A model generated the notes under the pieces. It worked only from the letters and a program-made list of their open reading frames with translations. It had not been told where the DNA came from and searched no databases. Positions 15,001 through 64,000 of a DNA stretch of 64,000 nucleotides are shown here, piece by piece (the stretch's first letter is position 1; every line of letters begins with the position of its first letter). Source of the stretch: an uncultured virus (IMG/VR IMGVR_UViG_3300025543_000015) (taxonomy: Duplodnaviria > Heunggongvirae > Uroviricota > Caudoviricetes > Crassvirales); IMG/VR virus record IMGVR_UViG_3300025543_000015; one strand, given 5' to 3'. Both the position numbers and the translations under genes were made by a program.

Positions 15001-16826
15001 ATAAAAAATATGGTACAATTCAAAAATTATTCTTTAGGGATACAAACCTTTTGGTGCTCCAAGAGGATAAAGTGGGTTATGTACTATTTGGTAAAGATAT
15101 ATTATACAATGCTGACGGTTCTTCGAATGTATCTTCTGTAGAGGATGTCTTAGGAGATTTCAGAGCATATACAGGTGAGTATGGTATTAGTAGAAATCCG
15201 GAGAGCTTTGCATTTGATGCAAACAATGTTTATTTCATGGACTCTAAAAGAGGGTGTGTTTGTAGACTAGGAGCTGACGGAATTACTGAAATATCTATGG
15301 CAGGTATGAGACAGTTCTTTAAGGATGATTTTAAGAATGCTATAGACCAAAAGAAATTAGGTTCGTATGACCCTTACTTAGACCAATATGTTGCTCACTC
15401 AAGTGTGGACTTATTGCTAAAGCCTTTCTCAATAGATTGCTCAGATGTATTCTATAGAGGAGATACTAGTGGTGTATATGAAATAACAATAGATTATGGT
15501 ATACTAGTGGGGAATGCAGGTTTTAGTTATGTAACTAATGGAGTTCCTGTTAACTTTACTTTAGAGTACGATGGTGTAGTAACTGATTATGGTTACTTCG
15601 GAGACCCTTCTTATGATTCAGTATTAATAGGTTTAGGATTACCTGCCACTACTGATGTAGGTACAGGCTCTATAGTATTTTCTAAAAATAAAAATATACC
15701 TAGAGATGCTGTACTAACAGTTACAGCCCCTATAGTAGGAACTAACTTCCAAATATCGGGTAATTGTGTCGTAGAGAATGAATTAACGGTTATCAATGTT
15801 ATATTGAACAACCCCGAGGATGAAGGTACTTCTATTAAGAGTAGATATAAATGGAGTACAGACACTTACTCATCACCTTTCACAACATATGATACAGTAT
15901 TTGATGTAGATGAGGTAGAGCTATTCAACACTGTAGTAGGTAATGAGGGCTCTATAAAAGTTCCTATAACAGGTAGTTCAGTTAGAGTAGAGTCTTACCA
16001 AGGTGTAGCACAAAACTTAGTTTGGAATGGTGAGGAAAATAAGATAGGATATTTAATATCTAACACTTTATATACAGATGCAGATATTGAAGCCTTAGAG
16101 GCTGCTGCTACGTTCCCTGCCTTTACGGAGGTTACAAATGGAGATGACGTAACTAGATATATAGAATTTGATTATGATAGACTCTCAAATGAGCAGTATT
16201 TATACATTATATGGGATTACAGAGATGTGGTACTAGGAATAAACGCCAATACTAAGATAAATATATACTTTGATTCTTCGGGGTCAATGAACTCTACTAT
16301 TGCACCCCTTGAAACTATGAGGGATACATTACTTAGAGATGCATTATTACCTTTATATGGTGGTGATGTAGCAGCTTATGATGCAAACGTTACTGTCATA
16401 TCACAGGCAAATGAGAGAACTATAGACATGATGAATATAAATGGTACTACTCCTACAGGAAATGTTATATCATTAATATTCCAAGATGAGGCTAACCCTG
16501 TATACCAAGGTGTATCATTTGCAGATACTGATGCACTTACAGCACAGTATATAACTGACATAGCTGATTTCAGAGCTAGGCTAGCAGGATTTGCAGCTAA
16601 CTACTTGAGAGTTGTTGTGTTCCAAGTTGATGAGTCGGGTGGAGCATTTGATTTCCAAAACTTTATAAAAGCTGTAGAACTTGGTACAGGTAACTATGCA
16701 GGAGCGAGTGGTTTATCAGATAGAACAGAGATAGCATACAAATATAACATAACAGACGGTGGTACAGCGAATTACTACTTAACACAGATATTATTAGCAC
16801 TAACAGAATTAGGATATGAGCTCTAG
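12075..16826 (+). CDS. tail stabilization/muzzle protein with C-terminal vWA-like domain
   Basis: N-terminal KLNQDIDERLLPKGQYPDALNIRV and YGISRNPESFA motifs of P22 gp10-like/crAss muzzle proteins; C-terminal YFDSSGSM (DxSxS MIDAS). Confidence 0.7.
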   Translation: MKLQNTFVQSKLNQDIDERLLPKGQYPDALNIRVANSEGSDVGAIENVKGNEQLTSLGLTNADTIGAFADGSSQKIYWFITSDTKDLVVEYDVPNAQTNILLESSNPNGVLAFNKNYLVTGVVKIVNGDSDRDLLIWTDDLNPPRVVNIERAKGYTADGFSELDIALIKRPPRSAPSCTLTYSPITTENNLENKFLTFAYRYKYLDGGYSAISSFSNYQFSPSDFELDYQTMENNGMANAFNAVKIDFNTGDERVTDIQLVYKESNSNTLYIIESFNKTNEVWGNDETQSFTFTNSKVLAALPEDELFRTYDNVPRKAKALELIGSRIAFGNYVEQYDLKNIYGEDINVDFSLSLTQLDLNGENLGVTIGNSVITNDLITIDFTGITLAAGNRLTFTFDLGNAAYDGLYGDTFDFILNQNFVDATSLASNADFIYFIETLISAAFEAGYTITPPTGGVVTSAVNGFTITGSTATSISILAPNIVYTVDAVDETASFQWDTSTQVFYREVAVASSLKTNRSYEVGIIYMDADGRKTFVQTDEDNTIYVDQEFSTFQNKIVTNINHLAPEWADRYKLVVKQNKGAYQTIYTNLFYEDGLFRWIKLEGANIGKVVQGDTLIVKSDLGGALADVTKLRVLEIKEQQSDFLGDVADPDNIIEEEGLYMRVKPVGIDMSFDESTIRTYEAGSHLRYTGRTRTSPIFGDDSTGAFVPYPLNAGSRVRIYVQFKARGSISYTAEYDKSFKVSGSYASVQSWFETEVIDLGSFGRDFTRGVTTGSFPNFLVGDGEYGYGYGFCDSNGVPVANGSDLGEKFFAWSHRDGTASRKITTTIKIEILASDGTIILETEPEDKGTELYYETSQTFDVIGGYHQGNLLNQSAVNPSAIVEMDFFNCYVMGNGAESYRFKDARYVGSDSDGQQLLANYLNIDLRPSTTSTEKYREVRRFSDITYSEPYNENSNVNGIGVFNLSKANYKEDLDKKYGTIQKLFFRDTNLLVLQEDKVGYVLFGKDILYNADGSSNVSSVEDVLGDFRAYTGEYGISRNPESFAFDANNVYFMDSKRGCVCRLGADGITEISMAGMRQFFKDDFKNAIDQKKLGSYDPYLDQYVAHSSVDLLLKPFSIDCSDVFYRGDTSGVYEITIDYGILVGNAGFSYVTNGVPVNFTLEYDGVVTDYGYFGDPSYDSVLIGLGLPATTDVGTGSIVFSKNKNIPRDAVLTVTAPIVGTNFQISGNCVVENELTVINVILNNPEDEGTSIKSRYKWSTDTYSSPFTTYDTVFDVDEVELFNTVVGNEGSIKVPITGSSVRVESYQGVAQNLVWNGEENKIGYLISNTLYTDADIEALEAAATFPAFTEVTNGDDVTRYIEFDYDRLSNEQYLYIIWDYRDVVLGINANTKINIYFDSSGSMNSTIAPLETMRDTLLRDALLPLYGGDVAAYDANVTVISQANERTIDMMNINGTTPTGNVISLIFQDEANPVYQGVSFADTDALTAQYITDIADFRARLAGFAANYLRVVVFQVDESGGAFDFQNFIKAVELGTGNYAGASGLSDRTEIAYKYNITDGGTANYYLTQILLALTELGYEL

Positions 16827-17559
16827 AGTAAATAAAACATTGACATTTGATGAGAAAGTAAAGGGGTGGACATCGTTCCATTCCTTCTTTCCCGAATATA
16901 TGGTAGGTATGAACAATAAGTTTTTCACATTTAATAATGGAGAGCTTTATGAGCATCACTCAGATAATGTGGCTAGAAATAATTATTACGGTATGCAATA
17001 TGATTCTACTATTGACGTAATGGTTAATGACTCACCATCTGAGATAAAGGAACTACAGGCTGTAAGCTTGGAAGGTAATGCTTCTTGGGAAGCACTTATA
17101 CAGGCTTACATATCAAACTCAGACGATGTTATGTCTAGTTCAATAACTGCTGCAGAATTTGTAAAGAAGGAGGGTATATGGTATGCATATGCTAGAAGGA
17201 ATGAGAGTGATATAGCTTTTGATTCTAAAGCCACTTATGGTTTAGGGACTATCTCCGGATTAACAGCAACTACGTTTGAGTTAAATGGTGGAAGCACTTC
17301 ATTATGTATTGGTGATACCATTGTTAGGGGTTCAGACTTAAATCAAATTGGTGTTATAACTGCTATTAGTGGTAGCACAATTACTTTGGATACTACTGCA
17401 GGACTAGTTAATGCTGACTTTGTAGTAGGTATGAAAGATTCTAGAATAGAGGGTGGTAACTTAAGAGGCTACACAATGAGGGTAGGTCTCTCAAGCTCTG
17501 CTGTAGGTAAGGTAGAACTATTTGCTGTAAACCTAGAGGTCATGAAAAGTTTTAGTTAA
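16816..17559 (+). CDS. tail protein, resembles muzzle C-terminal part
   Basis: TLTFDEKVKGWTSFHSFFPE and FVKKEGIWYAY motifs; overlaps the upstream gene. Confidence 0.6.
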   Translation: MSSRVNKTLTFDEKVKGWTSFHSFFPEYMVGMNNKFFTFNNGELYEHHSDNVARNNYYGMQYDSTIDVMVNDSPSEIKELQAVSLEGNASWEALIQAYISNSDDVMSSSITAAEFVKKEGIWYAYARRNESDIAFDSKATYGLGTISGLTATTFELNGGSTSLCIGDTIVRGSDLNQIGVITAISGSTITLDTTAGLVNADFVVGMKDSRIEGGNLRGYTMRVGLSSSAVGKVELFAVNLEVMKSFS

Positions 17560-30334: not shown

Positions 30335-30402
30335 TGGTCACAGTAGGGATTGAACCTACGACCTATCCCTTATGAGGGGAGTGCTCTACCTCTGAGCTAT
30401 GT
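30335..30402 (-). tRNA. tRNA-CAT (Met or Ile2) with 5' acceptor strand truncated; probable pseudo-tRNA
   Basis: D arm TAGCTCAGAGGTAGAGC, loop CT-CAT-AA, T arm GTAGG-TTCAATC-CCTAC, 3' strand TGTGACC-A; only ACA of the 5' strand pairs. Confidence 0.7.
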
Positions 30403-30404
30403 TG

Positions 30405-30488
30405 TAGCGAGAGTGGGACTCGAACCCACGGGGTCTTTCGACATGGGGATATGAACCCCACAAGCTTCCATCTACTGACTACCTCGCT
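30405..30488 (-). tRNA. tRNA-Met(CAT), initiator-like anticodon stem, long variable arm
   Basis: AGCGAGG/TCTCGCT acceptor, TGGGG-TTCATAT-CCCCA, variable hairpin GTC-GAAA-GAC, GTGGG-TTCGAGT-CCCAC. Confidence 0.8.
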
Positions 30489-30498
30489 ATATATTATG

Positions 30499-30506
30499 CA
30501 AATATA
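30499..30506 (-). promoter_or_regulatory. TAnnTTTG promoter for the CAT tRNAs
   Basis: TATATTTG on - strand 10 nt upstream of the tRNA. Other - strand boxes at 31184, 32121, 34409, 35050, 45750, 51960, 52500, 58224 and 61311. Confidence 0.7.
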
Positions 30507-30554
30507 AGCAAAATTATTTACATAATGTTACATTAACTAACATTTAACTTTTAG

Positions 30555-30641
30555 AGCAGCAGGTGAGATTCGAACTCACGGTGTGACATTATCTGACTAG
30601 CTTGGAAGGCTAGTACAATCGACCAACTATGCGACTGCTGC
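30555..30641 (-). tRNA. tRNA-Gly(TCC) with 17-nt variable region
   Basis: GCAGCAG/CTGCTGC acceptor, U73, CTAGC-CTTCCAA-GCTAG, GTGAG-TTCGAAT-CTCAC. Confidence 0.85.
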
Positions 30642-30647
30642 AATTTG

Positions 30648-30720
30648 TAGAAACAATAGGATTTGAACCTATGACCCTCTCGGTATCAGCGAGGTGCTCT
30701 ACCAACTGAGCTATGCTTCT
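30648..30720 (-). tRNA. tRNA-Ile(GAT)
   Basis: Canonical cloverleaf, loop CT-GAT-AC. Confidence 0.9.
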
Positions 30721-30726
30721 ATTTAG

Positions 30727-30800
30727 TACTCCCTCTTGGACTCGAACCAAGGGCATTCCCCTTAAAAAGGGGGAGCTCTAACCAACTGAGCTAAGGAAGC
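30727..30800 (-). tRNA. tRNA-Lys(TTT)
   Basis: Canonical cloverleaf, loop TT-TTT-AA. Confidence 0.9.
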
Positions 30801-30805
30801 AATTG

Positions 30806-30878
30806 TGGAGAAGAAGGGAATTGAACCCTCGAGGCTTGCAGTGCAAGTGCAAGTGTCTAGCCAACACGACACATCCCC
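30806..30878 (-). tRNA. tRNA-Ala(TGC)
   Basis: G3:U70 pair, loop CT-TGC-AC, GAGGG-TTCAATT-CCCTT. Confidence 0.85.
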
Positions 30879-30881
30879 ATT

Positions 30882-30913
30882 AAAAAAGCCCTAACAAATA
30901 AATGCTAGGGCTT
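30882..30913 (-). terminator. attenuator terminator 1, upstream of tRNA cluster 1
   Basis: AAGCCCTAGC-ATTTATTT-GTTAGGGCTT-TTTT ending 3 nt before tRNA-Ala. Confidence 0.85.
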
Positions 30914-30938
30914 CGGATACGTTAAAATTACCTACAAT

Positions 30939-31013
30939 CTAACATAGCATGGAAAGCCCTAGGAAGTTTCTCCCCACGGTCTTATCAATCGCTATTGTAA
31001 TAATTGTGTTCAT
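30939..31013 (-). CDS. leader peptide 1, MNTIITIAIDKTVGRNFLGLSMLC
   Basis: 24-codon ORF containing CTAGGGCTT, the exact complement of the terminator 5' arm. Confidence 0.75.
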   Translation of the reverse strand: MNTIITIAIDKTVGRNFLGLSMLC

Positions 31014-32128: not shown

Positions 32129-33055
32129 CTAAAAATTGTTATACGCCACGTTAAAGACTTTAAGACCTAAAGCTCGTGCTCGTCTAACTACTTGTAGCCT
32201 GTCATCAAACATTCCTACAATATAATTATCCTCAGCAATCTTTCTCCACATCTCCTCCTTCACAACCCAATCCGGTCTTTGGTCACCTTTAGGTCTGATG
32301 TATATTTCATCATAAAAAATACCATTATCAGATAACCACTTCTTAGTCTCATCTATACAAACAGCATCTCTGCCTGTACATATTATAACTTTAGTGCTAG
32401 TCATCTCTTCATAGTAGGGTGTCAAAGCTTGTGATATAACCTTAGTAGGATAATCTATTACATCCTCCCCAACCTTGTGCCAATCATAAGGACTTCTAGT
32501 AGCCCTGTCCATATGAGACAATGTTCCATCAATGTCAAATATTACACAATTAGTGTTATCGGGATTTTGACTAAGCTGAACCGGAGTAAAATCTATAGGA
32601 TTTTTAGCCAACTCTACCATTAAACTAGTAAATCTGTTATATTGCTTCTCAATTACGTGCTCTCCAACGCTTCTGCTTCTCATAGAGTCTCTATTTAAGG
32701 CATCTGCCTTGCTGATTTCAAATATCAAAACCTCAGCGTGTACGTTCCAATACTTAAATCTCTCTAAGTACTTGTATGTCAAGTGTGTAGCATCCGCTAT
32801 TACTGTCTTACCAAAATTAAGACCTTCATTGATTAAAGTGTCTTCGTACCTAGTAACCTTCTTTTCAAGACCTGCTACATCATTTCTTAAGTAGTAATCT
32901 TCTATACCTGACTCGGTAAAGCCAAACATAAGCTCTCTGATTTTATCCCTATTGACTATAGTATACTTTGAAGGGTCTTCCAACCACTTCTTGTGAGCCC
33001 AAGTACTTTTACCCGAGCCGCTGATTCCAATTGTTATTATTAAATTTCCTTTCAT
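32129..33055 (-). CDS. pseT: polynucleotide 5'-kinase/3'-phosphatase (T4 PseT-like)
   Basis: P-loop GISGSGKST, VNRDKIR, HAD motif FDIDGT, TGR, RPDWVVK, FDDR. Confidence 0.92.
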   Translation of the reverse strand: MKGNLIITIGISGSGKSTWAHKKWLEDPSKYTIVNRDKIRELMFGFTESGIEDYYLRNDVAGLEKKVTRYEDTLINEGLNFGKTVIADATHLTYKYLERFKYWNVHAEVLIFEISKADALNRDSMRSRSVGEHVIEKQYNRFTSLMVELAKNPIDFTPVQLSQNPDNTNCVIFDIDGTLSHMDRATRSPYDWHKVGEDVIDYPTKVISQALTPYYEEMTSTKVIICTGRDAVCIDETKKWLSDNGIFYDEIYIRPKGDQRPDWVVKEEMWRKIAEDNYIVGMFDDRLQVVRRARALGLKVFNVAYNNF

Positions 33056-33071
33056 TACTTTATTAATTTTA

Positions 33072-34379
33072 TTAGTTCAAAGATTCTATATCAGCTTCAC
33101 CATTATCTAGTTCTTGGCTTTCAAATTCTAAGAACCTAAAGCTCTTAAGCTTATATGACTTACATTCAAATAAATCTTCCACTCTCACAACTACACCTTC
33201 TTCCGGTACTTTGTTTGTACACATGAAGCAGTCTTTTTCGTTGTAAGCCTTCTCTAACCTCTCTATGAAATTTTTTCTCCAAGTCTCTAAGGTAGTGCTG
33301 TAATCAGTGTTGTACCAATCACCTGCTTTACCATAGAAGAATAAGTGAGAAGCTGCTAATCCAACTCTATCACAGAACTCTTTAATCTGAGGGTAGGTAA
33401 GCTCAGTAACTAAACCATCTGGAGTGGTATTGGTGATTCTGTATACCTCTAGCTTGTGCCAAACATTACCTTGGCAACCATAATCAAAATGTTTTTGAAT
33501 AGCTTTACCATTTCTATCGTAACCTAACATTTCACCATATAGAGTCCAACCTTTAGGTATATGCTCACCAATATCATTTTTTATAGTCTCCCACAAGTCA
33601 TAACCAAAGAAGTGGTCTTTAGATTTTGGGTCTTCTAGGTTAGCATTCTTAACCACCTTTCTAGAGCCATAGACTAAATCATACACTAGTTCTGATACAC
33701 TTGCACCAAAAAATTTAGAAACCTTCTCTATAAGGCTTAATTTACGTTTTACTAAAACATTTCCGACCCACCAAGATGTACCGTGTGTTTTATATGTAAT
33801 AGAAATTAAATCTGTAGGCTCAATTTTGTGTATGTTCTTACGAAGATTTTCAGTATCAACATGTAGATGTACTTGACCTTCTACCAATCTTGAAAGCTTT
33901 GGCTTCTTACCAACTCTAGCTTGTGCACCACCCTTAACAGGTACTTGGTACTTCTCAACTAGAAGTTGACCATTAATAGTGTCAAACTCTTTACCTACAT
34001 AATCACCAATATAGCCATCCAACCTACCCCACTGCTCAACAAGTCTAGCAGGTACAATATATCCCATGGATTTCTCACCACGTAGTTTCATAGCCTTAAC
34101 CCTGCAGTTATCCTCAAAGAAACCTTTTTGGTAAGGGTCTGCATTCAATGTATTGTCTCTAAATGAGTTTGTTGACGAGAGTAAGTTTTGAGATATTTTA
34201 CTCTCGATTGGAAAATAGACGTAAATGTCGCCCTCGTTGGCATCTAAACCTGTAATGACATTGTTGAAGTCAATTGAGACCATTTGTAGCCTGTCAGCGT
34301 TAGGATGCTTCTTAAGACCCTTTAACGATACCACCTTACATAAGTAGTTTGGATTTGCGTTTTTACTAATTTCTAACAT
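33072..34379 (-). CDS. RNA ligase (Rnl2/DRB0094-like) with N-terminal tRNA-binding OB-like domain
   Basis: KHPNADRL N-terminus, motif I TYKTHGTS, LYGEM, PEEGVVVR, YKLKSFRF. Confidence 0.85.
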   Translation of the reverse strand: MLEISKNANPNYLCKVVSLKGLKKHPNADRLQMVSIDFNNVITGLDANEGDIYVYFPIESKISQNLLSSTNSFRDNTLNADPYQKGFFEDNCRVKAMKLRGEKSMGYIVPARLVEQWGRLDGYIGDYVGKEFDTINGQLLVEKYQVPVKGGAQARVGKKPKLSRLVEGQVHLHVDTENLRKNIHKIEPTDLISITYKTHGTSWWVGNVLVKRKLSLIEKVSKFFGASVSELVYDLVYGSRKVVKNANLEDPKSKDHFFGYDLWETIKNDIGEHIPKGWTLYGEMLGYDRNGKAIQKHFDYGCQGNVWHKLEVYRITNTTPDGLVTELTYPQIKEFCDRVGLAASHLFFYGKAGDWYNTDYSTTLETWRKNFIERLEKAYNEKDCFMCTNKVPEEGVVVRVEDLFECKSYKLKSFRFLEFESQELDNGEADIESLN

Positions 34380-34455
34380 TTTATTTAAGTTTTATATTAA
34401 ATTCTATGCAAAGATAAGTAAAATAATTTACATGACAATAAAAAAAGTAAAAAAG

Positions 34456-34527
34456 TTTTCCTAGAGAGATTTGAACTCCCACTTCAAGGCTCGTAACCAA
34501 GTGTTCTATCCATTAAACTATAGGAAA
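34456..34527 (-). tRNA. tRNA-Arg(ACG), weak anticodon stem
   Basis: TTTCCTA/TAGGAAA acceptor, loop TT-ACG-AG, GGGAG-TTCAAAT-CTCTC. Confidence 0.75.
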
Positions 34528-34618
34528 ATAATTACCCTAGGGTTTTACTGCAGGTAGCATACCTAGGGTGATAGTGAAGTATTTTTGTCACAAATTTAGC
34601 ATATAATTGTGACAGTAG

Positions 34619-34701
34619 TACCGAGTGTGGGCTTCGAACCCACAAGACACAAGGTCGGCAAGTTTTAAGCCTGCTGCGTTTACCAGTTTCACCAACTCGG
34701 C
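34619..34701 (-). tRNA. tRNA-Leu(TAA)
   Basis: Type II cloverleaf, loop CT-TAA-AA. Confidence 0.9.
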
Positions 34702-34711
34702 ATTTAATCTG

Positions 34712-34792
34712 TAGCATCGGTGGGAATCGAACCCACAAAACTCTAGGGTTTAAGCCTAGGCACTCTACCATTCGCTTTTACGTCACGATGCT
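34712..34792 (-). tRNA. non-canonical tRNA with TAA anticodon (Leu?)
   Basis: AGCATCG/CGATGCT acceptor, CTAGG-CTTAAAC-CCTAG, short variable loop, enlarged D region. Confidence 0.7.
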
Positions 34793-34807
34793 ATTTTGTA
34801 ACATTAG

Positions 34808-34877
34808 TCTAAAAGGTAGGTAACGCTCCTACTTACTCCTACTTCCAAGGCAGGCATGTTACTATAATCGCTTCTAG
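34808..34877 (-). tRNA. tRNA-Pro(TGG), atypical T loop and reduced D arm
   Basis: CTAGAAG/CTTTTAG acceptor, CCTGC-CTTGGAA-GTAGG, T arm GTAGG-AGCGTTA-CCTAC. Confidence 0.65.
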
Positions 34878-34881
34878 GTAT

Positions 34882-34909
34882 AAAAAAACCTCCTAATTGC
34901 TTAGGAGGT
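34882..34909 (-). terminator. attenuator terminator 2, upstream of tRNA cluster 2
   Basis: ACCTCCTAA-GCAA-TTAGGAGGT-TTTTTT ending 4 nt before tRNA-Pro. Confidence 0.85.
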
Positions 34910-34945
34910 CTTTATCTTTATTAATTTAAAACTAAAACATGAATA

Positions 34946-35032
34946 CTAATACCTAAAGTTTACGCATAAAGAGTACTCCCAATTTCCACTAGGTTGTTCC
35001 AAAAGCTCTATATGTAAGCGTAATTTTCTCAT
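34946..35032 (-). CDS. leader peptide 2, MRKLRLHIELLEQPSGNWEYSLCVNFRY
   Basis: 28-codon ORF 17 nt downstream of promoter 35050-35057; contains the antiterminator segment. Confidence 0.75.
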   Translation of the reverse strand: MRKLRLHIELLEQPSGNWEYSLCVNFRY

Positions 35033-53209: not shown

Positions 53210-53229
53210 GTTTGTTGCTTTAAAATTAG

Positions 53230-53306
53230 AAGTGGGTGCAGGATTCGAACCTGCGATATACGACGATGAAGACGTAGCCTCTTAACCAACTCAGTCCATA
53301 CCCACT
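53230..53306 (-). tRNA. tRNA-like element with irregular anticodon arm (identity undetermined)
   Basis: AGTGGGT/ACCCACT acceptor, GCAGG-TTCGAAT-CCTGC, TACG-TCTTCATCGT-CGTA. Confidence 0.6.
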
Positions 53307-63364: not shown

Positions 63365-63423
63365 ATATTTTTTGTATATTTGCACTTATAATTAGTGATA
63401 CATAACTCAAAAAACTAAAACAC

Positions 63424-63753
63424 ATGGCAATTAAAGGAAACGCATTTAGCGAGTACAGAGATGTAATCGTTCAATTTAACCTCTCAGAAGGGTTAGACAT
63501 CGTTGGGCAAACTGCTCAAGAAGCGATGAGTATTGATGCTTATAAAGCAGCATTAAACAAAGTAGCTGACATTGAAGCTAAGTATGCAGCAGACTCTACA
63601 TCAGTAGTAGATTTAGCAGCAGTTAACGTTGTAATGACAGGAACAAGTCGTTACAAGCTTTACAGCTTTAACTTAACACTAGACATTTCAGCAGGTCTTT
63701 ACAGATTCGTTTGGATTGAAACAGTACCTAACGCAGCAGGATTAACTCCGTAA
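63424..63753 (+). CDS. highly expressed hypothetical (possibly structural) protein
   Basis: 109 aa with MCP-like codon bias, own promoter and terminator. Confidence 0.65.
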   Translation: MAIKGNAFSEYRDVIVQFNLSEGLDIVGQTAQEAMSIDAYKAALNKVADIEAKYAADSTSVVDLAAVNVVMTGTSRYKLYSFNLTLDISAGLYRFVWIETVPNAAGLTP

Positions 63754-63774
63754 GCAGTTAAGTAACAACTAATG

Positions 63775-63810
63775 ACATCTCGTCGCTTAATAGTGGGCGA
63801 GGTGTTTTTT
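63775..63810 (+). terminator. intrinsic terminator
   Basis: ACATCTCGTC...GGCGAGGTGT-TTTTT. Confidence 0.7.
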
Positions 63811-63826
63811 AAACAACAATAAAAAG

Positions 63827-63916
63827 ATGAAAAATTTTAACATATATTATAATTGCTTTAGTTGGTCGAATAACCAACAGGGTGAGTTATGTGTTAAAGT
63901 GAAGATAAGTATTTAG
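63827..63916 (+). CDS. leader peptide 3, MKNFNIYYNCFSWSNNQQGELCVKVKISI
   Basis: 29-codon ORF with A-rich upstream region, ends in TAG, followed by a terminator. Confidence 0.65.
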   Translation: MKNFNIYYNCFSWSNNQQGELCVKVKISI

Positions 63917-63943
63917 ATACTATTCCTTTCTTTATTACAGTAC

Positions 63944-63976
63944 AAGCCCTTAGCATTTATGTTAGGGGCTTTTTTT
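63944..63976 (+). terminator. attenuator terminator 3
   Basis: AAGCCCTTAGC-ATTTAT-GTTAGGGGCTT-TTTTT, near-identical to terminator 1. Confidence 0.8.
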
Positions 63977-63983
63977 ATTGGGG

Positions 63984-64000
63984 TGCTTTTTAGCTGAGGT
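63984..64000 (+). tRNA. probable 5' end of a tRNA, cut off by the window end
   Basis: 7 nt followed by TA-GCT-GAGGT, resembling positions 1-17 of a tRNA. Confidence 0.35.

What the first reader, a model, noticed from the sequence alone, without database searches (positions are those of the whole stretch)
63827..64000. Attenuator 3 at the window edge predicts a third tRNA array (Asn/Phe/Tyr/Cys/Ser/Trp/Gln)
Seen: MKNFNIYYNCFSWSNNQQGELCVKVKISI followed by a terminator nearly identical to terminator 1. A hairpin AGTAT-TTAG-ATACT is centred on the stop codon, flanked by TAAAG/CTTTA and AGGGT/GCCCT pairings reaching into the terminator arm. A tRNA-like start follows. None of the tRNAs for this leader's enriched amino acids was identified elsewhere in the window. 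Caveats: the antiterminator is weaker than at loci 1 and 2, and another terminator (63775-63810) lies just upstream with no clear promoter between.
Basis: partly seen in the sequence, partly recalled or inferred. Interest (0 to 1): 0.8.

Follow-up and report, generated by a model that had tools for sequence, protein, structure and literature searches.

The report
Leader-peptide attenuator gating a phage tRNA array
A 29-codon test gene at the edge of this flavobacterial phage window is spelled in the codons read by the seven tRNA genes that follow its terminator, so the phage probably makes that tRNA block only when ribosomes decode those codons slowly.

Summary
ORF 63827-63916, its stop-codon hairpin and terminator 63944-63976 are as described. 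Two viral contigs 99.97-99.99% identical to the window end continue past base 64000. Directly after the terminator they carry tRNA genes Tyr, Ser, Ser, Asn, Trp, Phe and Cys. That is six of the seven predicted amino acids (Gln is missing) and none outside the list.

Of leader codons 2-17, 13 of 16 are read by these tRNAs (background 0.20, p=1.9e-7). The ORF ranks first of 265 small ORFs.

The same layout heads three isotype-sorted arrays in Cellulophaga phages phi38:1 and phi17:2, Maribacter phage Panino and several uncultured contigs. In 17 of 17 leaders the composition matches the leader's own array, while residue order has drifted.

The best reading is a trp-style ribosome-mediated transcription attenuator whose cargo is tRNA genes.

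Weak points:
- The locus has no promoter of its own.
- Equilibrium folding favours the terminator.
- Two or three of the seven tRNAs are atypical.
- Translation and stalling are not shown.

Eight literature searches found no published account. This scan has noted the same thing on other DNA.

The parts
63374..63382 (+). Promoter-like -7 box of the Bacteroidota type; the nearest candidate promoter upstream of the leader
   Evidence: Motif scan. No such box lies between 63754 and 63827. That this motif is the Bacteroidota -7 consensus is recalled knowledge.
63424..63753 (+). 109-aa ORF of unknown family that precedes the leader
   Evidence: No PHROG family matched. Only identical copies were found in viral contigs.
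63776..63810 (+). Terminator-like hairpin and T-run of the 109-aa gene; the leader must be reached by read-through of it
   Evidence: Read; not tested further.
63827..63916 (+). Leader ORF, 29 codons plus stop (class B leader)
   Evidence: Ranks 1 of 265 small ORFs for codons read by the downstream tRNAs.
63833..63874 (+). Regulatory codons 3-16 (Asn x5, Tyr x2, Phe x2, Ser x2, Cys, Trp, plus one Ile)
   Evidence: 13 of 16 codons at positions 2-17 are read by the array's anticodons; background 0.20, p=1.9e-7.
63834..63900 (+). Hairpin 1:2. It pairs the regulatory codons with the segment that can otherwise form the antiterminator
   Evidence: Minimum-free-energy structures.
63879..63950 (+). 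Candidate antiterminator (2:3): a long irregular hairpin with the stop codon in its apical loop and its base in the terminator's 5' arm
   Evidence: dG -22.3, z=-3.76, 1 of 200 shuffles. It also forms in transcripts cut before the terminator's 3' arm.
63944..63976 (+). Intrinsic terminator (3:4): 12-bp stem, 4-nt loop, seven T
   Evidence: (dG -16.8). Close copy of the locus 1 terminator.
63980..64000 (+). First 21 nt of the Tyr(gta) tRNA-like gene. The array runs on in L002 (minus strand, 6670 down to 5765): Tyr, Ser tga, Ser gct, Asn, Trp, about 310 nt, Phe, Cys
   Evidence: ARAGORN. Rfam. Identity of L002 to the window.
30882..31013 (-). Sister locus 1 (class A): leader ORF 31013-30939 and terminator 30914-30882, followed by tRNAs Ala, Lys, Ile, Gly, Met and a second cat tRNA (30878-30340)
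   Evidence: The antiterminator duplex has dG -16.0; 0 of 300 shuffles were as good.
34882..35032 (-). Sister locus 2 (class C): leader ORF 35032-34946 behind its own promoter-like box, and terminator 34912-34882, followed by a tRNA-like element, Leu taa and Arg acg

Best explanation
This is a ribosome-mediated (leader-peptide) transcription attenuator whose regulated genes are tRNA genes.

Proposed mechanism. A transcript entering from upstream carries a 29-codon ORF. Codons 3-16 of that ORF are almost all read by the seven tRNAs encoded just behind the terminator. When those codons are decoded quickly, the ribosome runs through the distal ORF to the stop codon. The stop codon sits at the tip of the antiterminator hairpin, so that hairpin cannot form. 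The terminator folds and RNA polymerase stops about 4 nt before the first tRNA. When any of these codons is decoded slowly, because the charged tRNA is scarce, the ribosome stalls on the proximal ORF. That opens hairpin 1:2 and frees segment 2 to pair with the terminator's 5' arm. Polymerase then reads into the array. The result is negative feedback on the supply of exactly these tRNAs.

Shown: the ORF, the terminator, the array, the codon-to-anticodon match, the alternative pairings, and conservation across phages.

Inferred: translation of the ORF, stalling, and the direction and kinetics of the switch.
For: (1) The array predicted blind is there.

(2) Codon level. 13 of 16 codons (positions 2-17) and 15 of 28 overall are read by the array, against a background of 0.20 (p=1.9e-7 and 6.5e-5). 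The same leader holds 1 of 16 codons read by array A and 0 of 16 read by array C of the same phage. It ranks 1 of 265 ATG-ORFs of 20-45 codons in six frames. Both Ser tRNAs have their own codon family in the leader.

(3) The window, phi38:1 and Panino each have three such loci. In all three 3x3 leader-by-array tables only the diagonal is enriched.

(4) In 17 of 17 leaders the dominant amino-acid class of residues 2-17 is that of the array behind it. These are the window x3, phi38:1 x3, Panino x3, phi17:2 x3 and five viral contigs. Within a class the order of residues differs between phages, as expected for regulatory codons rather than a functional peptide.

(5) Structure. Region z=-5.12 and antiterminator z=-3.76. 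In 17 of 17 loci the best partner of the terminator's 5' arm lies in the distal half of the ORF, 6-34 nt before the stop. Fisher p=1.2e-7 against genomic segments, though the loci are related and not independent.

(6) By my reading of the sequences, one Panino-like contig (L085) changed both the ORF strand and the terminator arm while keeping the pairing, and the peptide changed at that site.

(7) Of 13 short ORFs that directly follow the shared promoter-plus-start motif in viral contigs, 7 are such leaders with tRNAs behind them.
Against: - No promoter lies between the upstream terminator (63776-63810) and the leader, so input depends on read-through of another terminator.
- The plain duplex between ORF and terminator arm is no better than chance at this locus (p=0.37; p=0.60).
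- At equilibrium the full transcript keeps the terminator (P=0.95) whatever ribosome position is masked. Only 3 of 9 loci switch thermodynamically, so the switch would have to be kinetic.
- Tyr and Ser(gct) have non-canonical T loops and get no Rfam tRNA match at E<=10. Trp scores 21.1 bits with the tRNA-Sec model only. Ser(gct) and Trp appear only at an ARAGORN threshold that gives 14-20 false calls per 64 kb of shuffled sequence.
- Gln was predicted but is absent from the array.
- The match is imperfect elsewhere. Window arrays A and C lack tRNAs for several codons of their leaders (own-array match 6 of 16 and 4 of 16). Panino's leader B has six Cys codons but no Cys tRNA was found in its array.
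- There is no direct evidence of translation, stalling or termination.
Confidence: 0.75

Rival explanations
1. The ORF is translated and codon-matched, but it acts by another route than stall-induced antitermination. Examples: translation of the leader protects or exposes the precursor to RNases and so sets tRNA processing or stability, or fast translation promotes read-through (the opposite sign).
For: Equilibrium folding never releases the terminator at this locus, and the plain antiterminator duplex is weak. The terminator ends about 4 nt from the first tRNA, so 5' processing and termination are physically close.
Against: The terminator starts 18-49 nt after the stop codon in the nine loci. 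That is beyond the reach of a terminating ribosome (footprint size is recalled), so the ribosome cannot melt it directly. A mutually exclusive hairpin with a good z-score exists. The partner strand sits in the distal ORF in 17 of 17 loci, which is the geometry of classical attenuators.
Confidence: 0.13
2. Chance ORF plus an ordinary constitutive terminator. The hairpin merely ends the upstream gene's transcript, and the array has its own unseen promoter.
For: An AT-rich genome gives many small ORFs (265). There is no promoter in front of the leader. A promoter-like box does occur inside array A of the window (by eye; motif scan).
Against: The ORF ranks 1 of 265 and p=1.9e-7 for the codon match. 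The blind prediction was fulfilled. The ORF, terminator and array layout, with matched composition, is kept in 17 of 17 loci of at least four phage lineages although the peptide order has drifted. The upstream gene already has its own terminator.
Confidence: 0.03
3. The small ORFs encode functional peptides (for example Cys-, Asn- and Ser-rich secreted or modified peptides), and their composition has nothing to do with the tRNAs.
For: The class B leaders of the Panino group are Cys-rich and partly conserved.
Against: Three peptide classes would have to divide the amino acids the same way as the three arrays do by coincidence. Residue order is not kept between lineages. The distal parts of the ORFs co-vary with the terminator arm rather than keeping the peptide (my reading).
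Confidence: 0.03

Closest known systems
Multivalent leader-peptide transcription attenuators of enterobacterial amino-acid operons (thr and ilvGMEDA leaders; also trpL, hisL, leuL, pheL). Named from recalled knowledge.
   Same: A short ORF with clustered regulatory codons, an intrinsic terminator before the cargo, mutually exclusive 1:2, 2:3 and 3:4 pairings, and more than one amino acid sensed.
   Different: The cargo is a block of tRNA genes, not biosynthetic enzymes. Six amino acids (seven anticodons) are sampled, mostly once to five times each, rather than in long runs of one or two. The host is a phage of Flavobacteriia. No Rfam leader family matches.
pheM leader upstream of pheST (Phe-tRNA synthetase) in E. 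coli. Recalled.
   Same: Leader-peptide attenuation applied to a component of the decoding apparatus rather than to amino-acid synthesis.
   Different: It controls a synthetase for one amino acid. Here the tRNAs themselves are controlled, so the sensed molecule and the product are the same species (direct feedback).
T-box riboswitches
   Same: They adjust expression of translation-related genes to the state of specific tRNAs by a terminator/antiterminator choice.
   Different: T-boxes bind uncharged tRNA directly through a specifier codon and the T-box sequence, and need no ribosome. No T-box match reached the Rfam gathering score in the window or in L002. Here a translated ORF does the sensing.
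tRNA arrays of phages such as Cellulophaga phages phi38:1 and phi17:2 and Maribacter phage Panino
   Same: The array order Tyr, Ser, Ser, Asn, Trp, Phe, (Cys) is the same, and so is the division into three isotype-sorted blocks.
   Different: In the GenBank records the leaders are either unannotated, covered by an opposite-strand ORF (phi38:1 gp067), or listed as hypothetical proteins (Panino CDS0063 and CDS0108). None of my searches found them discussed.

Membership tests
Leader-peptide (ribosome-mediated) transcription attenuators | Short ORF upstream of the cargo with a cluster of codons for the sensed amino acids | tested here: met
   ORF 63827-63916. 13 of 16 codons at positions 2-17 are read by the array. 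Translation itself is not shown.
Leader-peptide (ribosome-mediated) transcription attenuators | Intrinsic terminator between the ORF and the regulated genes | tested here: met
   12-bp hairpin and seven T at 63944-63976, about 4 nt before the first tRNA.
Leader-peptide (ribosome-mediated) transcription attenuators | Antiterminator that excludes the terminator and is itself excluded by a ribosome in the distal ORF | tested here: inconclusive
   For: the extended hairpin 63879-63950 has z=-3.76, with the stop codon in its apical loop, and it forms in truncated transcripts. Against: the plain duplex gives p=0.37 and 0.60, and equilibrium folding keeps the terminator.
Leader-peptide (ribosome-mediated) transcription attenuators | Cargo makes or charges the amino acid named by the regulatory codons | tested here: not met
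   The cargo is seven tRNA genes. No protein-coding gene lies between the terminator and the array.
Leader-peptide (ribosome-mediated) transcription attenuators | Read-through rises when the regulatory codons are decoded slowly | not testable with these tools
   The public RNA data were available only as assembled contigs, which cannot show transcript ends or levels.
Rfam leader families (Trp, His, Leu, Thr, Phe leaders) | Covariance-model match at the gathering score | tested here: not met
   No leader family reached gathering in the window or in L002. At the permissive threshold only terminator-only fragments appeared: L10_leader 22.7 bits and trpB 21.1 bits at this locus, and Phe_leader 19.6 bits (gathering score 55) at locus 2.
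T-box riboswitch | Covariance-model match (specifier loop, T-box sequence) | tested here: not met
   No T-box match reached gathering or E<=10 around the locus.
Phage tRNA array | Several tRNA genes head to tail in a phage genome | tested here: met
   Four genes pass the Rfam gathering score (Asn 64.0, Cys 41.5, Phe 30.2, Ser 29.8 bits). Three more are supported by relaxed ARAGORN calls and by conserved order in three relatives. Terminase, portal and other phage genes are in the window.

The most novel reading that the evidence does not exclude
The three codon-matched attenuators together sample all 20 amino acids: class A covers Ala, Lys, Ile, Gly, Met, Asp, Thr, Val and Arg-AGR; class B covers Tyr, Ser, Asn, Trp, Phe and Cys; class C covers Pro, Glu, Gln, His, Leu and Arg-CGN. 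They would form an inducible back-up decoding system. Each block is switched on only when the host's own tRNAs of that block run out or are cut, through host shut-off, tRNA turnover during infection, or anticodon-nuclease defences. The tRNA-repair pair (polynucleotide kinase and RNA ligase) encoded between two of the arrays would serve the same need. The whole module is a mobile cassette exchanged between unrelated phages of Flavobacteriia.
Probability: 0.35. Interest if true: 0.9.

Novelty: new variant of a known kind. Interest (0 to 1): 0.85.

Why it matters
Leader-peptide attenuation is a textbook mechanism. As far as my eight searches reach, it has been described only for amino-acid biosynthesis genes and a few synthetase genes, not for tRNA genes.

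Here the molecule that is sensed (the charged tRNA reading the leader codon) is also the product of the controlled genes. That is a direct homeostat for decoding capacity.

It would explain how phages with large tRNA sets avoid making them when the host supply suffices. It also suggests a sensor for host tRNA depletion or cleavage, and it explains the sorting of phage tRNAs into fixed isotype blocks.

The idea can be tested at once in cultured systems (phi38:1 or phi17:2 on Cellulophaga baltica; Panino on Maribacter).

In practice, small ORFs upstream of phage tRNA arrays are now unannotated, mis-annotated on the wrong strand, or called hypothetical proteins.

Tried and rejected
- Own assembly. 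It is not held. The nearest record, G001, has no match to 63400-64000.
- Phage database by DNA. Near and distant BLAST of the window end against cultured phages found nothing. Distant BLAST of the array gave only generic single-tRNA hits covering 11% of the query or less.
- Close but non-identical relatives of this locus. Neither the 109-aa neighbour nor an exact stretch of the Asn tRNA found anything beyond the same two contigs. No covariation test on this exact locus was therefore possible.
- Terminator consensus pattern. It led to unrelated contigs, not to more leaders.
- Recombinase alignment. The window and Panino recombinases were only 24% identical, and I dropped the alignment as a query.
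- elemo phage. Its 14-34 kb stretch has no annotated tRNAs. I did not scan it myself.
- Glu tRNA. The lone Glu tRNA at 53229-53306 has no leader or terminator in front.
- RNA evidence. Contigs from RNA libraries of two studies cover phi38:1 leader B, its terminator and array B in one piece (X1, X2, X4). Contigs cannot show starts, ends or levels, and their breaks coincide with the repeated promoter region. This is presence only, not evidence for or against attenuation.
- Host genomes.
- Literature. Search listings showed no paper on leader peptides or attenuation in front of tRNA genes. In PMC2965389 I read passages only; it has 0 occurrences of 'tRNA gene' or 'tRNA operon'. Subscription journals are not covered by these searches.

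Full report
WHAT IS THERE

- Its stop codon lies in the loop of a small hairpin (63908-63921).
- A 12-bp hairpin with a 4-nt loop and seven T follows at 63944-63976.
- This terminator is a close copy of the one in front of the first tRNA array of the window (minus strand, 30914-30882).
- The last 21 bases of the window begin a tRNA-like gene.
- Upstream lie a 109-aa ORF (63424-63753), its own terminator-like hairpin (63776-63810) and, further up, a promoter-like -7 box at 63374-63382. No such box lies between the two terminators.

THE WINDOW IS A PHAGE OF FLAVOBACTERIIA

PHROG matches include large terminase, portal, virion proteins, DNA polymerase, primase/helicase, ribonucleotide reductase, GroEL, polynucleotide kinase and RNA ligase. 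The terminase is 45-47% identical to those of Maribacter phage Panino, the Flavobacterium elemo phages and Cellulophaga phage phi38:1.

THE PREDICTION

The window's own assembly is not held. An exact search with the terminator and tRNA start found two viral contigs, L001 and L002. They match the window end at 99.97% over 3552 nt and 99.99% over 10058 nt. L002 runs 6649 nt further.

tRNA calls behind the terminator:
- ARAGORN at default settings finds Ser(tga), Asn(gtt) and Cys(gca) in both contigs.
- At 90% threshold it adds Tyr(gta), directly after the terminator, and Phe(gaa).
- At 80% it adds Ser(gct) and Trp(cca), which fill the gaps exactly.

How far to trust these calls:
- On three shuffles of the window the 90% setting gives 1 false call per 64 kb and the 80% setting gives 14-20. 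The last two calls are therefore weak on their own.
- Rfam passes Asn (64.0 bits), Cys (41.5), Phe (30.2) and Ser tga (29.8) at the gathering score of 29.
- Rfam gives Trp only 21.1 bits, with the tRNA-Sec model. It gives no tRNA match at E<=10 for Tyr or Ser(gct).
- Alignment with the homologues of phi38:1, Panino and phi17:2 shows a canonical T arm and anticodon loop for Trp. Tyr and Ser(gct) keep their anticodon loops but have odd T loops.
- The same order Tyr, Ser, Ser, Asn, Trp, Phe, (Cys) is called with better scores in all three relatives.

Gln is missing.

CODON MATCH

I used conservative wobble rules.
- 13 of 16 codons at positions 2-17, and 15 of 28 in all, are read by the seven anticodons. 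The background is 0.20 in the long ORFs of the window, giving p=1.9e-7 and 6.5e-5.
- For the anticodons of the window's two other arrays the same leader scores 1 of 16 and 0 of 16.
- Among 265 ATG-ORFs of 20-45 codons in all six frames of the window plus its extension, this ORF ranks first. The next best has 11 of 16.

THE SAME THING ELSEWHERE

Within the window:
- Locus 1 has a leader at 31013-30939 (minus) in front of Ala, Lys, Ile, Gly and Met.
- Locus 2 has a leader at 35032-34946 (minus) in front of a tRNA-like element, Leu and Arg.

phi38:1 has three arrays. Each follows a promoter-like box, a 25-29-codon ORF and a terminator:
- MKTIMNIATDIRTKGVKLLGRSRVL before Lys, Ile, Gly, Met, Asp, Thr, Val, Arg(tct).
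- MKTNMTYNNFSWYSNCSFSSYNVERLYLS before Tyr, Ser, Ser, Asn, Trp, Phe, Cys.
- MNVTLLHQEPLEQLRLPSRVPYYGIDELS before Pro, Glu, Gln, His, Leu, Arg(acg).

Panino has the same three. So does phi17:2, a 145-kb phage of a different genus.

A search of viral contigs with the shared promoter-plus-start motif gave 63 distinct sites. Of these, 13 had an ORF of 50 codons or fewer. Seven of the 13 are such leaders with tRNAs behind them: two are phi38:1 itself, one is a Calle-like genome and four are new contigs. The other six are ordinary small proteins with no tRNA.

Across all these loci:
- In 17 of 17 leaders the dominant amino-acid class of residues 2-17 equals the class of the array behind it.
- In the three phages with full 3x3 tables only the diagonal is enriched.
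- These loci share ancestry, so they are not 17 independent events. What counts is that composition is kept while residue order has drifted, and that three different compositions each fit their own array.

STRUCTURE

For this locus:
- The region 63827-63978 folds with z=-5.12, 0 of 200 shuffles as good. The fold contains a hairpin pairing the regulatory codons with 63873-63900, a small stop-codon hairpin, and the terminator.
- Segment 63879-63950 can instead form one long irregular hairpin: dG -22.3, z=-3.76, 1 of 200 shuffles. Its apex is the stop codon and its base uses the first bases of the terminator's 5' arm.
- This alternative is the minimum-energy fold of transcripts cut before the terminator's 3' arm, with or without a ribosome masked on codons 6-14.

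Across loci:
- In 17 of 17 loci the best partner of the terminator's 5' arm lies in the distal half of the ORF, 6-34 nt before the stop. Fisher p=1.2e-7 against random genomic segments.
- Reading the sequences, contig L085 differs from Panino on both strands of this pairing while the peptide changes there.

Against the model:
- At this locus the plain duplex is no better than chance (p=0.37; p=0.60).
- At equilibrium the full transcript keeps the terminator (P=0.95) for every ribosome position. Only 3 of 9 loci switch thermodynamically.
- As I recall, the classical trp terminator is also more stable than its antiterminator and the choice there is kinetic. That is a recollection, not a test.

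MECHANISM

The layout is that of a classical four-segment leader-peptide attenuator.
- Fast decoding takes the ribosome through segment 2 to the stop codon. The antiterminator cannot form, and polymerase stops about 4 nt before the first tRNA.
- Slow decoding of any class B codon stalls the ribosome on segment 1. This frees segment 2 for the terminator's 5' arm, and polymerase reads into the array.
- Because the product is the sensed tRNA, this is a negative feedback loop.
- The steps from translation onwards are inferred.

IMPERFECTIONS

- Window arrays A and C hold fewer tRNAs than their leaders name. The own-array match is 6 of 16 and 4 of 16, against 11 of 16 and 8 of 16 with the class sets taken from relatives.
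- Panino's leader B has six Cys codons but no Cys tRNA was found in its array.
- The window leader has no promoter of its own.

WHAT IS KNOWN

- No Rfam leader or T-box family matches.
- Eight full-text searches returned no paper on leader peptides or attenuation in front of tRNA genes (listings only).
- In PMC2965389, a survey of attenuators of which I read passages only, neither 'tRNA gene' nor 'tRNA operon' occurs.
- Earlier notes of this scan describe the same arrangement in other phage genomes and likewise found no published account. I saw them after forming my reading. They are not independent evidence.

VERDICT

I file it as a new variant of a known kind: leader-peptide attenuation with tRNA genes as cargo.

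Noticed in passing
window 30882-30914 (-); L006-L010, L012, L013, L015 around position 2501: The hairpin terminator of locus 1 recurs letter for letter in 8 other viral contigs of unrelated context. In the four contigs I scanned, a freshwater-2 RNA motif (52-70 bits) lies about 35 nt after it. In three of those four a glutamine riboswitch lies about 400 nt upstream. No leader or tRNA is there.
   Followed up: partly
window 32129-34379 (-): Polynucleotide kinase (32129-33055) and RNA ligase (33072-34379), the classic tRNA-repair pair, lie between tRNA arrays 1 and 2.
   Followed up: no
window 30340-30878 and 34455-34870 (-); 53229-53306 (-): Arrays A and C of this phage are shorter than in its relatives. 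No Asp, Thr, Val, Arg(tct), Pro, Gln or His tRNA was found in the window, although leaders A and C keep those codons. A lone Glu tRNA sits elsewhere without a leader. At least 6.6 kb of the genome lies outside the window, so these tRNAs may be encoded elsewhere.
   Followed up: partly
L020 (phi17:2, record 87.4-91.2 kb): A 145-kb phage of another genus carries the same three arrays in the order C, A, B, each with a promoter-like box, leader and terminator. The three-array module therefore looks like a cassette shared between unrelated phages of Flavobacteriia.
   Followed up: partly
L017 16100-17100 (-) (Panino): Leader B has six Cys codons, yet no Cys tRNA was found after Phe in that array.
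   Followed up: partly
L016 36714-36845; L018 25306-25401; L017 16990-17091: In GenBank, phi38:1 gp067 is annotated on the strand opposite to leader B. Panino CDS0063 and CDS0108 (hypothetical proteins) are leaders C and B.
   Followed up: yes
window 31159-31031 (-); L018 26186-26335: A small hydrophobic ORF of 42-49 aa sits between the promoter-like box and leader A in both the window phage and Panino (read by eye).
   Followed up: no
window 34711-34792 (-): A tRNA-like element with perfect acceptor and T arms but an ambiguous anticodon. ARAGORN calls cct at the 90% threshold. By eye, a perfect 5-bp stem would present taa. Rfam gives no tRNA call.
   Followed up: no
window about 34560-34615 (-); L017 about 16805-16845 (-): A similar short inverted repeat lies between tRNA genes inside arrays of the window phage and of Panino (by eye). 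It could be a processing or binding site.
   Followed up: no
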